Part shown: piece after piece, positions 8,629-14,521 of the stretch | Position numbering within the stretch: the stretch's first letter is position 1 | Layout of the letters: each line of letters starts with the position of its first letter | Source: an uncultured Methanospirillum sp. | GTDB lineage: Archaea > Halobacteriota > Methanomicrobia > Methanomicrobiales > Methanospirillaceae | Length of the DNA stretch: 64,000 nt | Assembly (NCBI GenBank): GCA_964637135.1 | Contig: CAZWTX010000011.1 | Span: 4,297-68,296, forward strand | Reading direction: 5' to 3' | The notes under the pieces: model-generated | What the model was told of the DNA's origin: nothing | What the model saw: only the letters and a program-made list of their open reading frames with translations | Database searches by the model: none | Translations under genes and position numbers: made by a program

Positions 8629-9288
8629 ATGAAGTTCCAATATACACTGCTCATCTGTATCCTCTTCCTGATGGTGATACCCCTGTCTGCAGACCGGGAG
8701 GTCGGGTTTGCAGATGAAGGGAATGCAGCAGCAATCAGGGAATACAACGAGGCAGTAGACTTCGCAGCCGCAGGAGAGATGGACAAGGCCCTTACATCAG
8801 TGAATAATGCCCTTGATAACCAGCCGAACTTCACGCTTGCCCTGGTCACGAAAGGGAATATCCTGATCAATCTCGGCAGGCTCGATGAAGCTGAAAAAGC
8901 CATTAATGTAGCAGCCGGGATTGAACCGGAAGACCCCATGGTCCTCGTCAGCCAGTCATCCCTGATGCAGAGCAGGGGAGATCATGCGGCTGCCATCCGG
9001 TATGCCAATATTGCAATAACGTCTGATCCCGGATGTATCGAAGCCTGGATCCTCAAGGGCACATCACATGGATCTCTCGGGGAATATGAATCTGCAAAGA
9101 ACGCATCATTACAGGCATTGTCTCTTGATCCTGGCAACAATCCGGCACAGGCCAATCTTGCATATGCCCTCCGCATGATGGAAGCAAACAAGACCGGGAT
9201 GACCGGCCGCACGGGAGCACAAAGCCCGCTCCCGTGGATCCTTGTTCCCCTGTCCGTTCTGGCTCTGGCAGTATTACGACGGGTGTGA
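8629..9288 (+). CDS. Secreted TPR protein with C-terminal CTERM-like membrane anchor
   Basis: Signal peptide, about 4 TPR repeats, tail TG..AQSPLPWILVPLSVLALAVLRRV (hydrophobic helix plus RR). Confidence 0.85.
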   Translation: MKFQYTLLICILFLMVIPLSADREVGFADEGNAAAIREYNEAVDFAAAGEMDKALTSVNNALDNQPNFTLALVTKGNILINLGRLDEAEKAINVAAGIEPEDPMVLVSQSSLMQSRGDHAAAIRYANIAITSDPGCIEAWILKGTSHGSLGEYESAKNASLQALSLDPGNNPAQANLAYALRMMEANKTGMTGRTGAQSPLPWILVPLSVLALAVLRRV

Positions 9289-10974
9289 ACCGGTTTTCCG
9301 GGGACGACCACGTTTCCGCTTTTCTCCCGGAACAACGCCCGAGGAAACCGGAGGGTTAAAAGATTCAGGGACAACGATATCAGACACAACTGAAACGGAC
9401 TTTTTAGGACGACCACGTTTCCGCTTTTTTCCCGGAACACCACCGGGGGGAACCGGAGGTTCGGAAGACACAGGGACAACGATATCAGACACAACTGAAA
9501 CGGACTTTTTAGGACGACCACGTTTCCGCTTTTCTCCCGGAACAACGCCCGGGGAAACCGGAGGGTCGAAAGATTCAGGGACAACGACATCAGACACAAC
9601 TGAAACGGACTTTTTAGGACGACCACGTTTCCGCTTTTCTCCCGGAACAACGCCCGAGGGAACAGAGAGCGGAAGCAAAGAGTCTTTCCGGGGACGACCG
9701 CGTTTTTTCGGTCCTGGCCGGGGAGGTGATATAGGATCCGTATCTCCGAGAATAATAGAGGTATTGCCATTGTATCCCGGGGCCTCTTTTGCAATACGCT
9801 CTTTTGCCGCTTCACAATAGGTCTCAGAGATATCAATCCCCAGATACCGGCGTCCGAGACGGGATGCCACAAGTGCCGTTGTACCAACACCACTGAAGGG
9901 ATCGAGGATGATATCACCCTTAAAACTGAATAACTTCAGACACCGTTCTACCAGTTCCTCGGGGAACATTGCCGGATGGTTATACTGTTTCATCCGGCGT
10001 TCTGGTCCGATTGACCATTTTGCAACCACCCAGGACTTGAACTCCTCGTCAAGGATGTCGGCATCCTCGCCTCGCCCGTCTTTTTTCAAATCGCCTTTGC
10101 AGAAGACCTCGATAAACTCCCAGGTATATTTCAGATACGGGCTCGAAGGACTCTTCCAGCTTCCCCACGCGGTGTATTTACAGTTGTAATTATTCTTCTC
10201 CCAGATGATTTCCCCTTTCCAGATCATCTTCTCGTTCATGAAAAATGACGAGATAAGGTGATGAAGAGGGATGTAATCTGAGAAGAGGGGCTGGATATTG
10301 ACGATAAACCGCCCGCCATAGGTCAGTACCCGGATTCCTTCACGAAAGATCCGATACAGTTTATCGAGATATGCCGCCCAGTTGATCCCATCCTCGCTAG
10401 CCAGGTAATCAATGCCGAAATTATAGGGCGGGGACGTTATGATGAGGTCAATGCAGTTATCCGGAAGGGATGCCAGTATAGTTTCACTGTCCCCGGCAAT
10501 GATCTGGTTGGTACAGGTTTCAGGGATGGAATTTCTGGTCTTAGAAAATGAATGGTTTTCTGCGTAATAGTACGCACCTCTTGCCTTTTCCTTTTCTTTT
10601 CGTCCGCCCACTTTTCTCTCGTCGGCGTAGCCGGCGTACAACCGTTTTCCATTCCTGATCCCATAACTGCGGATTTTCAGGATCTCATCGTGTAACTGCA
10701 CGAGCGGGTGGAGCATGGCATCGCCGGTATCCTCCGGTCCCTCCAGCGAATCCTTCCCCAGTATCTCCCCGATCATTCCACGGATCTGCCCGGGATCAAG
10801 GTGGATCAGTTCAGCCTGAAGACCAGAAGGCTGGATACTGATCCGGAGCTCGTCTGGTGAGACCATGCCGGTGAGTGACTCTGCTGCACGAATCTCATCG
10901 CCGGAGAGCGGTCTTCCGAGATCAACACGGACCATTCGTGATGATGTCCCCGTCTTTTTTTTTCTTGCTGGCAT
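9274..10974 (-). CDS. Site-specific amino-DNA methyltransferase (beta class, N4-C/N6-A) with C-terminal AT-hook repeats
   Basis: Motif IV DLIITSPPY precedes HPAMFP and motif I ILDPFSGVGTT (beta order). Tail has five K/R-RGRP-K/R motifs. TATA-like TTTTATAAA about 30 nt upstream on the minus strand. Confidence 0.95.
   Translation of the reverse strand: MPARKKKTGTSSRMVRVDLGRPLSGDEIRAAESLTGMVSPDELRISIQPSGLQAELIHLDPGQIRGMIGEILGKDSLEGPEDTGDAMLHPLVQLHDEILKIRSYGIRNGKRLYAGYADERKVGGRKEKEKARGAYYYAENHSFSKTRNSIPETCTNQIIAGDSETILASLPDNCIDLIITSPPYNFGIDYLASEDGINWAAYLDKLYRIFREGIRVLTYGGRFIVNIQPLFSDYIPLHHLISSFFMNEKMIWKGEIIWEKNNYNCKYTAWGSWKSPSSPYLKYTWEFIEVFCKGDLKKDGRGEDADILDEEFKSWVVAKWSIGPERRMKQYNHPAMFPEELVERCLKLFSFKGDIILDPFSGVGTTALVASRLGRRYLGIDISETYCEAAKERIAKEAPGYNGNTSIILGDTDPISPPRPGPKKRGRPRKDSLLPLSVPSGVVPGEKRKRGRPKKSVSVVSDVVVPESFDPPVSPGVVPGEKRKRGRPKKSVSVVSDIVVPVSSEPPVPPGGVPGKKRKRGRPKKSVSVVSDIVVPESFNPPVSSGVVPGEKRKRGRPRKTGSHPS
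9301..9660 (-). repeat. 105-bp coding tandem repeat (about 3.4 copies, 35 aa each, one AT-hook per unit)
   Basis: GGACGACCACG recurs at 9302, 9407, 9512 and 9617 (period 105); a diverged GGACGACCGCG copy at 9692. Confidence 0.97.
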
Positions 10975-11257
10975 AACCCTTCCAGAATGAATTCAATGAA
11001 TGTTTATAAAAGTAAAAACTGATAACCATTCTCCTTTATAACCGCCTTTGACCACGGAACCGGGTAAGGTATTTCCATTACCGCGGATATCATCTCTCAT
11101 GAGCCGGGAGGACCACCCTCCCAAGAATGAATGGGCACCAATGCGGACAAGGAACATGAATGGCAGGAAAGCTGGCCGAAACAGGCGGACGGGAATACTT
11201 ACCGGAAAACCAAAACGACTACTCCGACCAGGATATCACCGCAGGCAGCCTTTGGAA

Positions 11258-13528
11258 ATGCAGGGAGGTGAAACGAACCCTTCGAGGAGATCAGAGGAGC
11301 GAACACCGGGGGGAGCAGACCGGGATACGAGGGTTCAGGTGAATTCCGGTGTATTCCCCGACCACGATTCAGGAGATATGCGACGGGATTACAGACCGGG
11401 TTCTCCGGAAGGATCGATTGAATCCCTGCTCATTCTTGTCCGTGACGTCGTGCGGTTCTCGAGGACACAGGTTCAGGAAGGAAAAGGGATCAAGCAGGTT
11501 ATCAGCAGAGCCGGTAACATCCTCGGGGTTGAATACTGTTCATTCTTCGATCTTCTGCCTAAAACCGGAAAAACCGTTGCAGATGAGGTATATCTCTGGT
11601 CAGCGAGGTACGGGTTTATTATCGGGGCAGATTGTGAAGACCCGGATGACGGAATTATCCGGATCAGGAACCGGCTGTCAGCAGGAGAAACAATATTCCT
11701 GTTCAGGAACCGGTCAGACGGCTTAATCAGGAAACTCTTCGAGAACAGGGAGGTTGATTCTGCTCTTATCATTCCAGTATTCTCCCAGGCACGGCTCGCA
11801 GGATCATTTGTCCTCTGGAGCCGGGATCCTTACCGGAGGTGGCGTTCTGAAGAACTGCACTGCCTCAGTATTCTCGCCGAATTCCTCGGAAAACTTCTCG
11901 AACATGGTAGTGTTGAAGAACGACTTCTTCTCAGCGAGGAAAAGTTCAGGACCATTGTCGATACGATCGGTGATTTTTATTTCCAGACCGATACAACCGG
12001 TGCAATTCGTGCTATGAGCCCGTCCATGGTACAGGCACTCGGTTACGATGCCCAGACGGATCTTCAGGGTGCCCTGTTTGAGTCATTGCTTGCCGATGGT
12101 GAGCAATGGGCAGTTTTTCTTTCTGATATCCTTCAGACAAACGGGGTTCGGGACTATGAACTCGAACTGGCAGGGAAGAGCGGAAAACCCATCTACGGCT
12201 CAGTCAGCTGCCGGATGGTATTTGACAGGGTCGGCCGGTTCCAGGGCCTGGAAGGGATTATCAGGGATATCACCCGGAGAAAACAATATGCCGAGTTACT
12301 GGAGGAAAACCAGTGGAAACTTGACCAGGCACAGAAAATTGCAAAACTCGGTGTCTGGTCATATTACCTGAACAACCGGTACCTGAAAGTCTCACCGGAA
12401 ATATTCTCTATCTTCAGCATTCACACTGGAGAGAACGTAATCGGGTTTGATAGGATCCAGGATATGACCGCTCCGCAATATCTGGAGCGACTGAAATCAT
12501 GCATCGAACAGAAAATTCCTGCAGGGGAGGAGTTTGAACTGGAATTTATGGTAACCTATGAGCGGGGTGCATTCAAATTCATCAGGATGAAAAGCCTCCC
12601 CATAATCCGGGATAATATTATAAAAGGCGCTTTTGGCATTTTCCAGGATGTAACCGAGCGTAAGCAGGTTGAGCAGCACCTCATCAGGTATGCCGAGGAA
12701 CTTGAACGTAAAAACCTGGAAATGGATGCCCTCCGGACCCAGCTGCTTGATATGAACAGGGAACTGGAGGATCGTGTAAAGAGACGGGCTCTGCAGGTAG
12801 AGGAACTGCTCAGGCAGAAAGATGAGTTTATCATGCAGATCGGCCACGATCTCAAGACGCCCCTCACCCCGCTCGTTGCCATCCTTCCGTTTATCAGAAA
12901 ACGGATAGACGATCCTGAGATCGGGGAACTCCTGGACATGACAATAAAAGATGTCACGTCGATAAAGCACCTTATCACGTCAGTCCTTGAACTGGCACGA
13001 ATGAACACCCTGTACACAGTCTCTGATGCACAGGTCATCAGGGTTGCCGATGTCATCAACGAAGTGATCACTGATTACTCCTACCTTATTCTCCAGAAAA
13101 GCCTGACGGTGAACAACAGTGTGCCCAGGGATCTGACCACGCTCATGTCACCCATGCATTTTGAGACACTCATCGGCAATATCATCGGAAACGCAGTGAA
13201 ATACTCATATCTTGAAGGAACCATAACCATATCCGGAGAAGGATATGATGATTATATCCTGCTCCAGGTCAGGGATACCGGTATCGGCATGAACAAGGAT
13301 GATATCAGGTTCATTTTTGACGGATTTTATCGTGCAGACTCATCACGCCATGAACGTGACTCGCACGGACTCGGACTGACCATTGCAAAACGCGTGATCG
13401 AACTCTACGGGGGCCAGATCTGGGCAGCCAGTGAAGGAGAAGGGAAAGGAACGGTCTTCCAGGTAAAACTGAAGAAAAGACCGAGGAATATCACTACCGG
13501 CAGTGAAGATCCAGACACAAACCGGTGA
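11258..13528 (+). CDS. Cytoplasmic sensor histidine kinase (GAF-like, PAS, PAS, HisKA, HATPase)
   Basis: HDLKTPLTP H-box, IIGNAVKY N-box, DTGIG, GLGL; PAS C-termini DITRRK and DVTERK. Start uncertain (TTG 11048 or a later ATG such as 11258). Confidence 0.92.
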   Translation: MQGGETNPSRRSEERTPGGADRDTRVQVNSGVFPDHDSGDMRRDYRPGSPEGSIESLLILVRDVVRFSRTQVQEGKGIKQVISRAGNILGVEYCSFFDLLPKTGKTVADEVYLWSARYGFIIGADCEDPDDGIIRIRNRLSAGETIFLFRNRSDGLIRKLFENREVDSALIIPVFSQARLAGSFVLWSRDPYRRWRSEELHCLSILAEFLGKLLEHGSVEERLLLSEEKFRTIVDTIGDFYFQTDTTGAIRAMSPSMVQALGYDAQTDLQGALFESLLADGEQWAVFLSDILQTNGVRDYELELAGKSGKPIYGSVSCRMVFDRVGRFQGLEGIIRDITRRKQYAELLEENQWKLDQAQKIAKLGVWSYYLNNRYLKVSPEIFSIFSIHTGENVIGFDRIQDMTAPQYLERLKSCIEQKIPAGEEFELEFMVTYERGAFKFIRMKSLPIIRDNIIKGAFGIFQDVTERKQVEQHLIRYAEELERKNLEMDALRTQLLDMNRELEDRVKRRALQVEELLRQKDEFIMQIGHDLKTPLTPLVAILPFIRKRIDDPEIGELLDMTIKDVTSIKHLITSVLELARMNTLYTVSDAQVIRVADVINEVITDYSYLILQKSLTVNNSVPRDLTTLMSPMHFETLIGNIIGNAVKYSYLEGTITISGEGYDDYILLQVRDTGIGMNKDDIRFIFDGFYRADSSRHERDSHGLGLTIAKRVIELYGGQIWAASEGEGKGTVFQVKLKKRPRNITTGSEDPDTNR

Positions 13529-13561
13529 AGTGGTATTGGAGAACGGCACAAAGGAGTACAG

Positions 13562-13945
13562 ATGATGAATGAAAAGGGTTGCATTCTGATCGTTGATGAT
13601 GATCCCCATATCAGACAGACGGTCAAAACCATCCTCTCTGCTGAGGGTTTTGATGTCAGCATGGCAGAGAGCGGTGAAGAATGCCTCAATCTGTTGAAAG
13701 AAGGATTCTCCGGGGTGATCCTTCTCGATATCATGATGCCGGTGATGGACGGATGGGATACGATCAAGGCTATCATCTCCGAAGACCTCTTCAATGGAGT
13801 TGTGATCGCCATGCTGACCGCGAGGAGTGCCCCTGATGAAAAGATGGTCGGTCTCCAGGAATATGTGATTGATTATATCACGAAACCGTTCGACATCGAT
13901 GACCTCATCCGCAAGACAGAATATTTTCTCAGGTTTGTCCCGTAA
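13562..13945 (+). CDS. Single-domain response regulator (receiver only)
   Basis: ILIVDDD, LLDIMMPVMDG, MLTA, YITKPF. Confidence 0.95.
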   Translation: MMNEKGCILIVDDDPHIRQTVKTILSAEGFDVSMAESGEECLNLLKEGFSGVILLDIMMPVMDGWDTIKAIISEDLFNGVVIAMLTARSAPDEKMVGLQEYVIDYITKPFDIDDLIRKTEYFLRFVP

Positions 13946-13966
13946 CAACCATTCGGTCAGCCAGAT

Positions 13967-14521
13967 ATGAAGATTATAATCATCGGTTCCTCAACCGGCG
14001 GCCCGTTCATTCTCGACGAGATATTTTCCCGTTTTCCGTCAGTCAACGCCTGTATCCTCATCATCCAGCATCTTCCGACAGCATTCACGGAATCGTTCAG
14101 GAAAAACCTCCAGTCGATCACCTCCATGAAGGTGATTATCGGCGAAGAAGGACAGGTGATTGCACCGGGGACGATCATCATCGCCCCGGGAGACCGGCAT
14201 CTCATCTTACAAAAAAACCGTACCATCCATCTCGATGATGCTCCAAAAATCCACGGGGTCAGGCCTGCTGCTGACAGTACCATGTGTTCACTGGTCTCAC
14301 GAATCGAAGACCGGATCCTCGGAATTATTCTTACCGGGATGGGACAGGATGGTACGACCGGGCTCAGGCATATCAAATCAACCGGCGGGGTGACATGGGC
14401 ACAGGATCCGGAAACCGCTCCGATCAAAAGTATGCCCATGTCAGCAATAGAAGCAGGCGTGGCAGACAAAGTCTATTCCCCGGTTGAGATCAGGACGCAA
14501 CTGGTTGCATTCTGCAGTTGA
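13967..14521 (+). CDS. cheB: Stand-alone CheB-type methylesterase domain (no receiver)
   Basis: Catalytic Ser-His-Asp contexts GSSTGGP, IQHLP and LTGMGQDG; only 184 aa. Confidence 0.92.
   Translation: MKIIIIGSSTGGPFILDEIFSRFPSVNACILIIQHLPTAFTESFRKNLQSITSMKVIIGEEGQVIAPGTIIIAPGDRHLILQKNRTIHLDDAPKIHGVRPAADSTMCSLVSRIEDRILGIILTGMGQDGTTGLRHIKSTGGVTWAQDPETAPIKSMPMSAIEAGVADKVYSPVEIRTQLVAFCS

What the first reader, a model, noticed from the sequence alone, without database searches (positions are those of the whole stretch)
9274..10974. Archaeal DNA methyltransferase carrying five HMGA-like AT-hooks
Seen: a complete beta-class amino-MTase (SPPY, HPAMFP, DPFSGVGT) followed by a ~170-aa Pro/Ser/Val-rich, probably disordered tail with five AT-hook motifs: PKKRGRPRKD, KRKRGRPKKS three times, KRKRGRPRKT. 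Known: the RGRP core flanked by K/R binds the minor groove of AT-rich DNA in eukaryotic HMGA proteins and in Myxococcus CarD; it is not a usual part of prokaryotic MTases. Inference: the tail could tether the enzyme to AT-rich DNA. In this GC-rich genome that mostly means promoters, origins or invading DNA. That would give a chromatin-targeted, possibly regulatory methylation system, or an MTase doubling as an architectural protein. This is the best candidate for an undescribed system in the window.
Basis: partly seen in the sequence, partly recalled or inferred. Interest (0 to 1): 0.82.

Follow-up and report, generated by a model that had tools for sequence, protein, structure and literature searches.

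The report
Archaeal cytosine methylase with AT-hook tail
This methanogen gene encodes a stand-alone DNA cytosine methylase, the counterpart of the known enzyme M.MhuI, that has grown a floppy tail carrying five AT-hook DNA-gripping motifs; the tail most likely just holds the enzyme on DNA rather than forming a new regulatory system.

Summary
ORF 9274-10974 (-) encodes 566 aa: an N-terminal domain of unknown fold, a beta-class amino-methyltransferase core, and a 166-aa disordered basic tail with five K/R-flanked RGRP AT-hooks. Pfam AT_hook scores 32 bits against a cut-off of 17. Hooks 2-5 lie in a recent in-frame 105-nt tandem repeat.

Conserved gene order shows the gene is the ortholog of Methanospirillum hungatei Mhun_0884 (M.MhuI). 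That is a solitary enzyme matched by SMRT sequencing to m4C at CTNAG, with 96% of sites methylated.

Among orthologs the tail has zero hooks, one hook, five (this window) or eleven (one MAG, an independent 60-nt repeat). None of 150 wider cluster representatives has a hook.

CTNAG sites here show no link to AT-rich DNA, and the eleven-hook ortholog lies in a 34% GC locus. A multivalent, non-specific minor-groove tether is more likely.

Noticed in passing: the one-hook orthologs, M.MhuI included, end in a canonical PCNA-binding PIP box (QHHLDRFY). The multi-hook proteins lack it.

Verdict: a new variant of a known kind, of moderate interest. DNA binding by the tail is untested.

The parts
9274..10974 (-). 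Whole gene: 566-aa solitary beta-class N4-cytosine DNA methyltransferase with an AT-hook tail (stop codon at 9274-9276).
   Evidence: ORF. Pfam domains. Orthology to M.MhuI.
10750..10947 (-). N-terminal small alpha/beta domain (aa 10-75; strand-helix-strand-strand-helix), function unknown.
   Evidence: AF2 pLDDT is about 90. No Pfam hit, no PDB sequence hit and no significant fold match, best E 0.14.
10525..10692 (-). Conserved basic segment (aa 95-150; SYGIR.GKR.Y.GY.DERKV.GRKEK...RG..YYA) preceding the catalytic core.
   Evidence: Invariant columns G105, R120, K121, V122, R125, K128, R132 and Y137 in the 48-sequence alignment. It is retained even in the short REase-linked bacterial forms.
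9775..10521 (-). Beta-class amino-MTase catalytic core (aa 152-400). Motif IV SPPY lies at nt 10423-10434, motif I DPFSGVGT at nt 9880-9903 and HPAMFP at nt 9961-9978.
   Evidence: Pfam PF01555 E 3.4e-40. PDB 2zie E 8.6e-32 and the cytosine-N4 MTase 8s9n. Foldseek top hits are TTHA0409 and rotifer N4CMT. Coordinates.
10126..10194 (-). Near-invariant loop NNYNCKYTAWGSWKSPSSPYLKY (aa 261-283), the putative target-recognition loop.
   Evidence: The columns are invariant across the family. The loop differs from M.MhuI at one residue, A/S. Its low pLDDT in the apo model is compatible with ordering on DNA, which is an inference.
9277..9774 (-). Disordered basic C-terminal tail (aa 401-566; Pro/Val/Ser-rich, pI 11.3).
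   Evidence: pLDDT below 50 with no secondary structure. Composition.
9682..9711 (-). AT-hook 1, PKKRGRPRKD (aa 422-431), outside the tandem repeat.
9607..9636 (-). AT-hook 2, KRKRGRPKKS (aa 447-456).
9502..9531 (-). AT-hook 3, KRKRGRPKKS (aa 482-491).
9397..9426 (-). AT-hook 4, KRKRGRPKKS (aa 517-526).
9292..9321 (-). AT-hook 5, KRKRGRPRKT (aa 552-561), five residues from the C-terminus.
9302..9663 (.). Tandem repeat of 105 nt (35 codons, in frame) x 3.4 copies at 90% identity. It generated hooks 2-5.
   Evidence: TRF result. All 13 variable sites fall outside a 50-nt invariant block encoding KRKRGRPKKSVSVVSD. The depth ratio in an independent run fits about three copies.
10975..11047 (.). 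AT-rich divergent intergenic region between the MTase (-) and the PAS histidine kinase (+). It is the probable promoter region and contains TTTATAAAAG.
   Evidence: Sequence printed. Function is inferred only.
11048..14521 (+). Conserved neighbours: PAS histidine kinase, stand-alone receiver (13562-13945, ortholog of Mhun_0886 / PDB 3cg4) and CheB. They are context used to establish orthology, not shown to be functionally linked.
   Evidence: Synteny. The RR matches 3cg4 at E 3.5e-51.
8629..9288 (+). Convergent TPR-protein gene overlapping the MTase 3' end by 15 nt. It is a conserved neighbour and is not a restriction enzyme.

Best explanation
The gene encodes the ortholog of M.MhuI, a solitary beta-class DNA methyltransferase with no restriction partner. 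It very probably makes N4-methylcytosine at CTNAG throughout the chromosome.

Catalysis and site recognition lie in the conserved core (aa 95-400). The 166-aa C-terminal tail is an intrinsically disordered, strongly basic string of five AT-hooks that arose by recent in-frame tandem duplication of a 35-codon unit.

The most likely role of the tail is a multivalent, sequence-tolerant minor-groove tether. Each RGRP core can insert into a short A/T tract, and such tracts occur about every 200 bp in this genome. Several hooks on flexible Pro/Ser/Val spacers would raise the enzyme's residence time and local concentration on DNA. The enzyme could then scan and methylate efficiently without the hooks changing which sites it modifies.

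In the sister clade, which includes M.MhuI, the equivalent tail carries one hook plus a C-terminal PIP box that would dock the enzyme on the PCNA sliding clamp. In this lineage the PIP box is absent and the hook has been multiplied. That points to a switch from clamp-assisted to direct DNA tethering.

Shown: the gene structure, domains, repeat, orthology, solitary status and distribution of hooks.
Taken from the literature for the ortholog: m4C at CTNAG.
Inferred: DNA binding by the tail, its effect on the enzyme, and PCNA binding by the orthologs.
For: 1. Core identity.
- Pfam N6_N4_Mtase E 3.4e-40.
- Motif IV SPPY precedes motif I DPFxGxGT, which is the beta-class order. SPP[YF] is the N4-cytosine signature by established knowledge of amino-MTase motifs.
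- The closest structures are TTHA0409 and the cytosine-N4 MTase N4CMT.

2. Orthology to M.MhuI.
- The block CheB-RR-HK-MTase-TPR is conserved in the window, in L001-L008 and in the JF-1 chromosome.
- The window RR hits PDB 3cg4 (Mhun_0886) at E 3.5e-51, against 1e-18 for the next hit.
- The JF-1 RR two genes from the MTase is identical to 3cg4 (PMC9981736). The JF-1 MTase is therefore Mhun_0884.
- Blow et al. 2016 list Mhun_0884 as M.MhuI: type II, m4C, CTNAG, 96.3% of sites methylated, no linked REase (PMC4752239 supplement).
- The putative recognition loop differs from M.MhuI by one residue.
- In 13 other loci the same core sits beside a Bpu10I-family REase. By my recollection that family cuts CTNAG-core sites.

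3. Solitary status. There is no REase in the flanks, and no Bpu10I-like ORF anywhere in the 64-kb window.

4. The tail is real and under constraint.
- Pfam AT_hook scores above its gathering score.
- The tail is predicted disordered.
- The hook block is 100% identical across copies while all 13 substitutions fall in the spacers.
- One hook is conserved in 17 cluster representatives of the sister clade.
- P0045 has an independently expanded array with a 60-nt unit and acidic spacers. Only the hook is common to the two arrays.
- Both flanks of the array are reproduced in independent metagenomes.

5. The hooks do not point at the target sites. CTNAG sites are not enriched near A/T tracts or in intergenic DNA. 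W>=6 tracts are frequent at 297 per 64 kb, and 3.8-fold denser in intergenic DNA.

6. PIP box. It is present in 40 of 46 one-hook proteins, against 0.02 expected by shuffling, and absent from both multi-hook proteins.
Against: - No experiment shows that this tail binds DNA, or that it affects activity.
- Orthologs with no hook exist (M. lacunae and others), so the tail is dispensable for the basic function.
- Four members of the one-hook clade have let the hook decay.
- Identity of the hook block across copies could reflect recent duplication or gene conversion rather than selection. Codon-level syn/nonsyn counts did not discriminate the reading frame.
- The specificity is transferred from a 57-60% identical ortholog. 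The CTNAG link to the Bpu10I family rests on my recollection of that family's sites.
- The copy number of the repeat is not directly confirmed, because short-read contigs break inside it.
- Transcript evidence is minimal: depth-2 contigs in metatranscriptomes that may contain DNA.
- The NJ tree used for the gain/loss scenario has no support values.
Confidence: 0.55

Rival explanations
1. The hooks direct the enzyme preferentially to AT-rich DNA such as promoters, origins or foreign DNA. Methylation would then be regionally biased and regulatory, or the protein would double as an HMGA-like architectural factor.
For: - The hooks match the AT_hook model and closely resemble HMGA hooks.
- A/T tracts of 6 or more are 3.8-fold denser in intergenic DNA than in coding DNA in the window. 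A hook-tethered enzyme would therefore dwell more at promoters.
- Orphan MTases are often associated with regulatory unmethylated sites (PMC4752239).
- Five to eleven hooks is far more than simple affinity would seem to need.
Against: - The one-hook ortholog M.MhuI methylates 96.3% of CTNAG sites, which is essentially the whole genome.
- CTNAG sites in the window are not enriched in intergenic DNA (1.23 against 1.57 per kb). Their local AT content equals random (0.461 against 0.462), and they are no closer to A/T tracts than random positions.
- The largest array occurs in a 34% GC locus, where AT-rich DNA is everywhere and cannot serve as an address.
- Hook number (0, 1, 5, 11) does not track GC content.
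Confidence: 0.17
2. The array is an essentially neutral by-product of replication slippage in a low-complexity tail. It is tolerated because the tail is disordered, and the extra copies have no selected function.
For: - The repeat copies are 90% identical, so they are recent.
- Hook-less orthologs and decayed hooks exist.
- Only two multi-hook proteins were found among about 270 proteins and about 160 loci.
- The spacers evolve freely.
Against: - The hook block is invariant while the spacers diverge: 13 of 13 variable sites fall outside a 50-nt block. For a block fixed in advance the probability would be about 2e-4, but this block was chosen after seeing the data.
- Two independent expansions, with different unit lengths and spacer chemistry, both multiplied exactly the hook.
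- All repeats stay in frame and the ORF stays open.
Confidence: 0.15
3. The tail works mainly through something other than duplex-DNA minor-groove binding. Candidates are RNA binding, nucleoid condensate formation, or recruitment of a protein partner.
For: - AT-hook-like basic motifs in eukaryotes are reported to bind RNA as well (my recollection, not tested here).
- The block conserved with each hook extends beyond it (KRKRGRPKKSVSVVSD), which hints at an additional contact.
- The sister clade's tail carries a protein-docking PIP box.
Against: - No partner motif was found in the window protein, and it has no PIP-like match.
- The enzyme's substrate is DNA, so DNA tethering is the simpler reading.
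- The SVSVVSD extension is not shared with P0045 or with the one-hook clade.
Confidence: 0.08
4. The tail is not part of the protein, either through assembly collapse or expansion of the repeat or because translation ends earlier.
For: - Short-read contigs break inside the repeat.
- The exact protein is absent from the protein and contig collections.
- There is no proteomic evidence.
Against: - The ORF is uninterrupted from the conserved start to the stop.
- Contigs identical to both junctions (core to hooks 1-2, and hook 5 to the stop) occur in independent samples, and the depth ratio fits three copies.
- Orthologs encode homologous hook tails in the same frame.
- A metatranscriptome contig covers hooks 1-2.
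Confidence: 0.03

Closest known systems
M.MhuI (Mhun_0884, ABD40634.1) of Methanospirillum hungatei JF-1, a solitary type II m4C MTase acting at CTNAG
   Same: Same gene neighbourhood (TPR - MTase - PAS HK - stand-alone RR - CheB). The two share 57-60% identity, the same N-terminal domain and core, a near-identical putative recognition loop and a basic disordered C-terminal tail containing an RGRP hook.
   Different: M.MhuI has one hook (PKRRGRPPKQ) followed by a C-terminal PIP box (QHHLDRFY) and is 451 aa. The window protein has five hooks, no PIP box and a 105-nt repeat array, and is 566 aa.
P0045 (641 aa, MAG GCA_964434005.1), the eleven-hook ortholog
   Same: It lies in the same syntenic block and has the same core. 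Its tail is a tandem array of K/R-flanked RGRP hooks and lacks a PIP box.
   Different: Its unit is 60 nt (20 aa) x 10.4 with acidic spacers (PIIEEETEKV), in a 34% GC locus. The expansion was independent, and the protein is only 48% identical overall.
Type II R-M methyltransferases of the same core family, paired with Bpu10I-family restriction endonucleases (bacteria, ANME-2, Altiarchaeales)
   Same: The catalytic core and recognition loop are 55-65% identical.
   Different: They have an adjacent REase (13 of 81 loci), usually no alignable N-terminal domain, and no hook tail.
CcrM of Caulobacter, a beta-class orphan MTase with a C-terminal non-specific DNA-binding domain
   Same: It is a beta-class solitary MTase whose C-terminal extension contributes DNA binding beyond the catalytic core. 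The role of the CcrM C-terminal domain is from my recollection of the literature.
   Different: The CcrM extension is a folded domain, the enzyme makes m6A at GANTC, and the tails are unrelated in sequence.
Eukaryotic amino-MTases fused to chromatin modules: basal-fungal N6A-MTase clade with AT-hooks, and bdelloid-rotifer N4CMT
   Same: An amino-MTase of prokaryotic type is joined to a chromatin or DNA-targeting module. AT-hook fusions are explicitly listed in PMC4738411. N4CMT is a top structural match at about 30% identity.
   Different: Those are eukaryotic and their MTase clades or modules differ. That N4CMT carries a chromodomain is my recollection. The fusions arose independently.
HMGA proteins, Myxococcus CarD and WhiB7 (classical AT-hook proteins)
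   Same: They have an RGRP core flanked by K/R in a disordered region. HMGA and CarD have several hooks per protein (Pfam match; PMC11354804).
   Different: None is an enzyme. HMGA is about 100 aa with an acidic tail, and CarD and WhiB7 have RNAP-interacting domains. None of these features is present here.
DNMT1, the eukaryotic maintenance MTase recruited by PCNA
   Same: This is an analogy for the one-hook orthologs only: a DNA MTase carrying a PIP box (DNMT1-PCNA binding is established knowledge).
   Different: It is unrelated in sequence and makes m5C. The window protein itself has no PIP box.

Membership tests
Beta-class N6/N4 amino-DNA methyltransferases (Pfam PF01555) | Significant match to the family profile over the whole domain | tested here: met
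   E 3.4e-40, 138.8 bits against a cut-off of 26.7, profile positions 1-221 of 221.
Beta-class N6/N4 amino-DNA methyltransferases (Pfam PF01555) | Circular permutation typical of the beta class: catalytic motif IV (S/D/N-PP-Y/F) lies N-terminal to the SAM-binding motif I (FxGxG) | tested here: met
   SPPY at aa 181-184 and DPFSGVGT at aa 358-365.
Beta-class N6/N4 amino-DNA methyltransferases (Pfam PF01555) | Fold similar to solved beta-class MTases | tested here: met
   Foldseek hits: 2zie at E 4e-17 (TM to target 0.75), then 8s9o, 6pbd, 1g60, 1eg2 and 1boo.
N4-cytosine subclass | Motif IV is SPP[YF] rather than [DN]PP[YF] | tested here: met
   SPPY is invariant in 48 homologues. That this motif marks N4-cytosine enzymes is established knowledge, not a test made here.
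N4-cytosine subclass | Produces m4C in DNA | not testable with these tools
   Only the ortholog M.MhuI was matched to m4C, by SMRT sequencing (PMC4752239 supplement).
M.MhuI orthologous group (solitary CTNAG m4C MTase of Methanospirillaceae) | Same conserved gene neighbourhood as Mhun_0884 | tested here: met
   TPR-MTase-HK-RR-CheB in the window, L001-L008 and L082. The window RR is the ortholog of Mhun_0886 / 3cg4.
M.MhuI orthologous group (solitary CTNAG m4C MTase of Methanospirillaceae) | Conserved target-recognition region | tested here: met
   The 48-aa stretch around NNYNCKYT.WGSWKSPSSPYLKY differs from M.MhuI at 7 of its 48 positions; within the 23-aa loop itself there is one substitution, A/S.
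M.MhuI orthologous group (solitary CTNAG m4C MTase of Methanospirillaceae) | Methylates CTNAG | not testable with these tools
   Transferred from the ortholog. It is compatible with the Bpu10I-family REase partners of bacterial homologues.
Type II restriction-modification system | A cognate restriction endonuclease gene adjacent to the MTase | tested here: not met
   The neighbours are a TPR protein and a PAS kinase. PADLOC finds only the MTase. tblastn with the family's Bpu10I-like REases finds nothing in the 64-kb window or in the Methanospirillum loci.
AT-hook motif (Pfam PF02178) | Profile match above the gathering score | tested here: met
   32.2 bits against 17.4, with four stretches passing on their own.
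AT-hook motif (Pfam PF02178) | G-R-P core (usually RGRP) flanked by K/R on both sides | tested here: met
   Five instances, KKRGRPRK or KRKRGRP(K/R)K.
AT-hook motif (Pfam PF02178) | Binds the minor groove of AT-rich DNA | not testable with these tools
   Needs EMSA or footprinting with distamycin/netropsin competition.
HMGA protein family | Small (about 100 aa) non-enzymatic protein with three hooks and an acidic C-terminal tail | tested here: not met
   The hooks are appended to a 400-aa enzyme. The C-terminus is basic (KTGSHPS) and the tail pI is 11.3. Only the hooks are HMGA-like.
Myxococcus CarD family | N-terminal CarD_TRCF / RNAP-interacting domain | tested here: not met
   No such Pfam domain at E up to 1.
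PIP-box (PCNA-interacting) proteins | Qxx[LIM]xx[FYW][FYW], usually at the extreme C-terminus in archaea | tested here: not met
   No match anywhere in the window protein. It is met in 40 of 46 one-hook orthologs, M.MhuI included.
Phase-variable MTases (simple-sequence-repeat switches) | A repeat whose copy-number change shifts the reading frame | tested here: not met
   The unit is 105 nt, or 35 codons. Copy-number change keeps the frame and alters only the hook number.

The most novel reading that the evidence does not exclude
The C-terminal tails of this archaeal orphan MTase lineage are interchangeable tethering modules. The ancestral form, as in M.MhuI, would use one AT-hook plus a PIP box to ride on PCNA and methylate CTNAG directly behind the replication fork. 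That would be a prokaryotic counterpart of DNMT1-PCNA maintenance methylation. Lineages that lost the PIP box, namely this window and P0045, would have compensated by amplifying the AT-hook into 5-11-copy arrays. This leaves a natural series of 0, 1, 5 and 11 hooks, with or without a PIP box, in one orthologous enzyme.
Probability: 0.3. Interest if true: 0.75.

Novelty: new variant of a known kind. Interest (0 to 1): 0.5.

Why it matters
Orphan DNA methyltransferases are widespread in archaea, but how they find and keep up with their sites is largely unknown.

This lineage offers one orthologous enzyme, of a specificity already determined for M.MhuI, with four natural tail states:
- no tail;
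- one AT-hook plus a PIP box;
- five hooks;
- eleven hooks.

That makes two questions directly testable. The first is how non-specific DNA tethers and sliding-clamp docking affect the processivity, completeness and timing of methylation in an archaeon. The second is whether AT-hooks, usually regarded as a eukaryotic chromatin device, function in archaeal chromatin.

If the PIP box in M.MhuI-type enzymes is functional, I know of no earlier case of replication-coupled DNA methylation through PCNA outside eukaryotes. If the tail proves neutral, the gene is simply an M.MhuI ortholog with a repeat expansion.

Tried and rejected
1. Searching the 5.8-billion-protein collection with the tail alone found nothing, probably because of compositional filtering. 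It gave no census of similar hook arrays on other proteins.
2. The exact window protein is not in the protein or contig collections. Its genome is not among the GTDB representatives, so the organism could be placed only as a Methanospirillum relative.
3. The specificity lead GTAC, from one homologue auto-named 'MjaV', was rejected. Synteny ties the ortholog to Mhun_0884 (CTNAG), not to Mhun_3051 (GTAC).
4. Syn/nonsyn counts among repeat copies did not discriminate the reading frame, because the spacers change mostly non-synonymously in every frame. The frame rests on ORF continuity and ortholog conservation.
5. The opposite-strand and other-frame ORFs over the repeat (9242-9820 +, 192 aa; 8982-9917 -, 311 aa) were rejected as repeat-driven artefacts. 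The + frame even reads RGRP, because the hook codons are nearly self-complementary.
6. The R-M system reading was rejected, as no REase is present. The phase-variation reading was rejected, as the repeat is in frame.
7. tblastn with the N-terminal domain alone found nothing because the domain is too divergent. Alignment start positions were used as a rough proxy instead.
8. The fold search with the N-terminal domain gave no significant match.
9. An exact-block scan and a relative scan of JGI metagenome contigs gave no further hook-bearing relatives.
10. The RNA runs gave only depth-2 contigs, too weak to claim expression.
11. The bacterial-type 'QxxLF' C-terminal endings were noted but not pursued. 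The signal (18 of 101 against 1.0 expected) comes mostly from one archaeal clade.

Full report
**1. Observation**

The minus-strand ORF 9274-10974 encodes 566 aa.
- SPPY at aa 181-184, HPAMFP at 333-338 and DPFSGVGT at 358-365.
- Five basic-flanked RGRP hooks at aa 422-431, 447-456, 482-491, 517-526 and 552-561.

Pfam reports N6_N4_Mtase (E 3.4e-40, aa 175-392). It also reports AT_hook PF02178 at 32.2 bits, above its gathering score of 17.4, with four stretches passing on their own.

The tail (aa 401-566) is rich in Pro, Val and Ser and has a pI of 11.3, against 6.4 for the rest of the protein. AlphaFold2 models it without secondary structure at pLDDT below 50.

Hooks 2-5 are not independent. 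They lie in a 105-nt (35-codon) tandem repeat of 3.4 copies at 90% identity, nt 9302-9663.

Among the three full copies, all 13 variable sites lie outside a 50-nt block that encodes KRKRGRPKKSVSVVSD and is identical in every copy.

No other ORF in the window has a basic-flanked RGRP. The window is about 53% GC, so 'GC-rich' overstates it.

The two other long ORFs over the repeat are by-products of the repeat.

**2. Is the array real?**

The organism occurs in anaerobic bioreactor, digester, wastewater and sediment metagenomes. In run X1, contigs identical to the window cover 9000-9331 (hook 5 and the stop) and 9630-11200 (hooks 1-2 joined to the core).

The invariant repeat word has depth 25.4 against about 9 for the flanks, as expected for three copies. 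Short-read contigs do not span the array.

Two metatranscriptome contigs at depth 2 lie on the gene, and one covers hooks 1-2. This is weak evidence of transcription.

The exact protein is not in the large protein or contig collections. The genome is not among the GTDB species representatives.

**3. What the enzyme is**

The core (aa 152-402) matches solved beta-class amino-MTases. By sequence the best hits are T. thermophilus TTHA0409 (E 8.6e-32) and the cytosine-N4 MTase 8s9n. By fold they are the same enzymes, followed by CcrM, M.BceJIV, M.MboIIA, M.RsrI and M.PvuII.

Motif IV is SPPY, the form typical of N4-cytosine enzymes by established knowledge.

The closest homologues are Methanospirillum and other Methanomicrobiales MTases at 55-67% identity.

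The gene order CheB - stand-alone receiver - PAS histidine kinase - MTase - TPR protein (- CNNM or Kup) is conserved in three places:
- the window;
- all eight Methanospirillum loci from the genome scan, and the locus of P0045;
- the M. hungatei JF-1 chromosome.

The window's receiver protein hits PDB 3cg4 at E 3.5e-51, with the next hit at 1e-18. A published paper identifies 3cg4 as Mhun_0886 (PMC9981736). The JF-1 receiver two genes from the MTase is identical to the 3cg4 chain.

The JF-1 MTase (ABD40634.1) is therefore Mhun_0884. The supplement of Blow et al. 2016 lists Mhun_0884 as M.MhuI: type II, m4C, CTNAG, 96.3% of sites methylated, with no linked restriction gene (PMC4752239).

The near-invariant loop NNYNCKYT.WGSWKSPSSPYLKY is the likely recognition element. 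It differs from M.MhuI by one residue.

The same core occurs at 50-65% identity in many bacterial phyla. In 13 of 81 loci it sits directly beside a Bpu10I-family restriction endonuclease (PF09549, E 1e-22 to 5.5e-26). From memory, that family cuts sites built on CTNAG.

Neither the window nor any Methanospirillum locus has such a gene, and PADLOC sees only an MTase.

I conclude with high confidence that the window gene is a vertically inherited, solitary ortholog of M.MhuI. With good confidence, it makes m4C at CTNAG.

**4. The tail in its family**

Hook counts in the 120 best homologues, with the window protein counted separately:

| Form | Count | Notes |
|---|---|---|
| No tail hook | 102 | includes four with a long tail and a decayed hook (P0020-P0023) and two short bacterial forms whose only GRP match lies outside the tail |
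| One tail hook | 17 | about 450 aa, the M. hungatei group |
| Five hooks | window protein | 105-nt repeat unit |
| Eleven hooks | 1 (P0045) | 60-nt repeat unit |

None of the 150 best representatives of 50%-identity clusters, which span much wider MTase diversity, has a basic-flanked RGRP. A scan of JGI metagenome contigs added none.

P0045 is a syntenic ortholog from a 34% GC locus. Its array is a 60-nt unit x 10.4 copies with acidic spacers. It is unrelated to the window's 105-nt unit except for the hook itself, so the two arrays expanded independently.

On a neighbour-joining tree of the core, which has no support values, the placements are:
- the window protein is sister to the one-hook clade;
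- P0045 is basal within the Methanospirillaceae group;
- the hook-less clades lie in between.

Hooks have therefore been gained, multiplied and lost within one orthologous lineage.

**5. How it most likely works**

CTNAG sites in the window (99 sites, observed/expected 0.40) show no association with AT-rich DNA:
- They are not enriched in intergenic DNA.
- Their local AT content equals random.
- They are no nearer to A/T tracts than random positions.

A/T tracts of 6 or more occur about every 215 bp and are 3.8-fold denser between genes.

The one-hook ortholog methylates nearly all of its sites, and hook number does not follow GC content. I therefore favour a generic tether. In this reading the hooks do not choose the sites; they keep the enzyme on DNA. 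Multivalency and flexible spacers would give higher residence time and let the core scan neighbouring DNA. This step is inferred, not shown.

It is not excluded for a five-hook enzyme, but the target-site statistics and the 34% GC eleven-hook ortholog count against it.

A neutral slippage product is also possible. However, the hook block is invariant within divergent repeats, and exactly the hook was amplified twice independently. Both points argue for selection on hook number.

**6. An unexpected neighbour finding**

The most conserved part of the one-hook tails is their C-terminal peptide, for example EESSQHHLDRFYSDGS in M.MhuI. It contains Q-x-x-L-x-x-F-Y, the canonical PCNA-interacting PIP box, at the extreme C-terminus.

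A strict PIP pattern lies in the last 25 residues of 40 of 46 one-hook proteins, or 11 of 17 cluster representatives. Residue shuffling predicts 0.02.

P0020 retains the PIP box although it has lost the hook. Both multi-hook proteins lack it.

This suggests the ancestral tail is a tethering module (hook plus clamp docking). Lineages without the PIP box may have compensated by multiplying the hook.

I found no paper describing a PIP box on an archaeal DNA MTase. I also found none linking AT-hooks with prokaryotic R-M or orphan MTases. AT-hook fusions to amino-MTases are documented in basal fungi (PMC4738411), and bacterial AT-hook proteins such as WhiB7 are known (PMC11354804).

**7. Other parts**

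The N-terminal domain (aa 10-75) is confidently modelled, but it has no Pfam, PDB-sequence or fold match.

By a rough proxy, the alignment start position, forms with this domain are rarely REase-linked: 1 of 38 against 12 of 42, Fisher p 0.0018. Its role is open.

**8. Verdict**

The hooks are real and the fusion is unusual. It is not an undescribed system, and AT-rich targeting is not favoured.
- The gene is a new variant of a known kind: an M.MhuI-type solitary m4C methyltransferase with an amplified AT-hook tether.
- Interest is moderate. It is raised by the natural series of tail states and by the PIP box in the sister clade.

Noticed in passing
L082:9318-9341 (M. hungatei JF-1 CP000254, gene Mhun_0884 / M.MhuI); also the C-termini of P0005, P0006, P0011, P0012, P0015-P0020, P0025 and P0030: The one-hook orthologs end in a canonical PCNA-interacting PIP box (QHHLDRFY, QNNLDQFF or QPSLDHYY). 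It is present in 40 of 46 such proteins against 0.02 expected by shuffling. P0020 keeps it after losing the hook. The two multi-hook proteins lack it. This suggests clamp-coupled methylation in an archaeon.
   Followed up: partly
L047:8913-9741, L055:395-1216 and 11 further loci (L048, L049, L051, L052, L062, L064-L066, L068, L073, L076): Bacterial, ANME-2 and Altiarchaeales homologues of the MTase core sit next to a Bpu10I-family restriction endonuclease (PF09549). The core family therefore includes genuine type II R-M systems, while the Methanospirillaceae copies are solitary.
   Followed up: yes
window 10750-10947 (aa 10-75 of the MTase): This is a confidently folded small alpha/beta N-terminal domain with no Pfam, PDB-sequence or fold match. 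Loci in which it aligns are rarely REase-linked (1 of 38 against 12 of 42, p 0.0018 by a rough proxy).
   Followed up: partly
window 9242-9820 (+) and 8982-9917 (-): Long alternative-frame ORFs (192 and 311 aa) run through the repeat. The + frame even reads FRGRPRF, because the hook codons are nearly self-complementary. They are repeat artefacts, not genes.
   Followed up: yes
whole window: Tetranucleotide biases are strong. CTAG is almost absent (10 sites, o/e 0.04), and AGCT (0.29) and CTNAG (0.40) are depleted. GATC (2.66) and CCGG (2.75) are enriched. CTNAG, AGCT and GATC are among the motifs methylated in M. hungatei.
   Followed up: no
window 11048-14521 (+): The PAS histidine kinase, stand-alone receiver and CheB-like methylesterase are conserved next to the MTase throughout Methanospirillaceae. 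The receiver is the ortholog of the crystallised Mhun_0886 (PDB 3cg4). Whether this signalling module relates functionally to the MTase, with which it shares a divergent promoter region at 10975-11047, is unknown.
   Followed up: partly
window 9274-9288; L082:9244-9356: The MTase tail-coding end overlaps the convergent TPR gene by 15 nt in the window and, as the genes are called, by 113 nt in M. hungatei JF-1.
   Followed up: no
C-termini of hook-less homologues (for example P0001-P0004 'KSGIQSSLI', P0041 'GKQLELF', P0051 'DQLVLF', P0060 'QESLF', and many bacterial '...SLF' or '...RLF' ends): Many family members without hooks end in Q-x-x-L-[FIL] (18 of 101 against 1.0 expected by shuffling). 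This resembles truncated PIP or bacterial beta-clamp-binding motifs. The signal comes mostly from one archaeal clade, so it is weak.
   Followed up: partly
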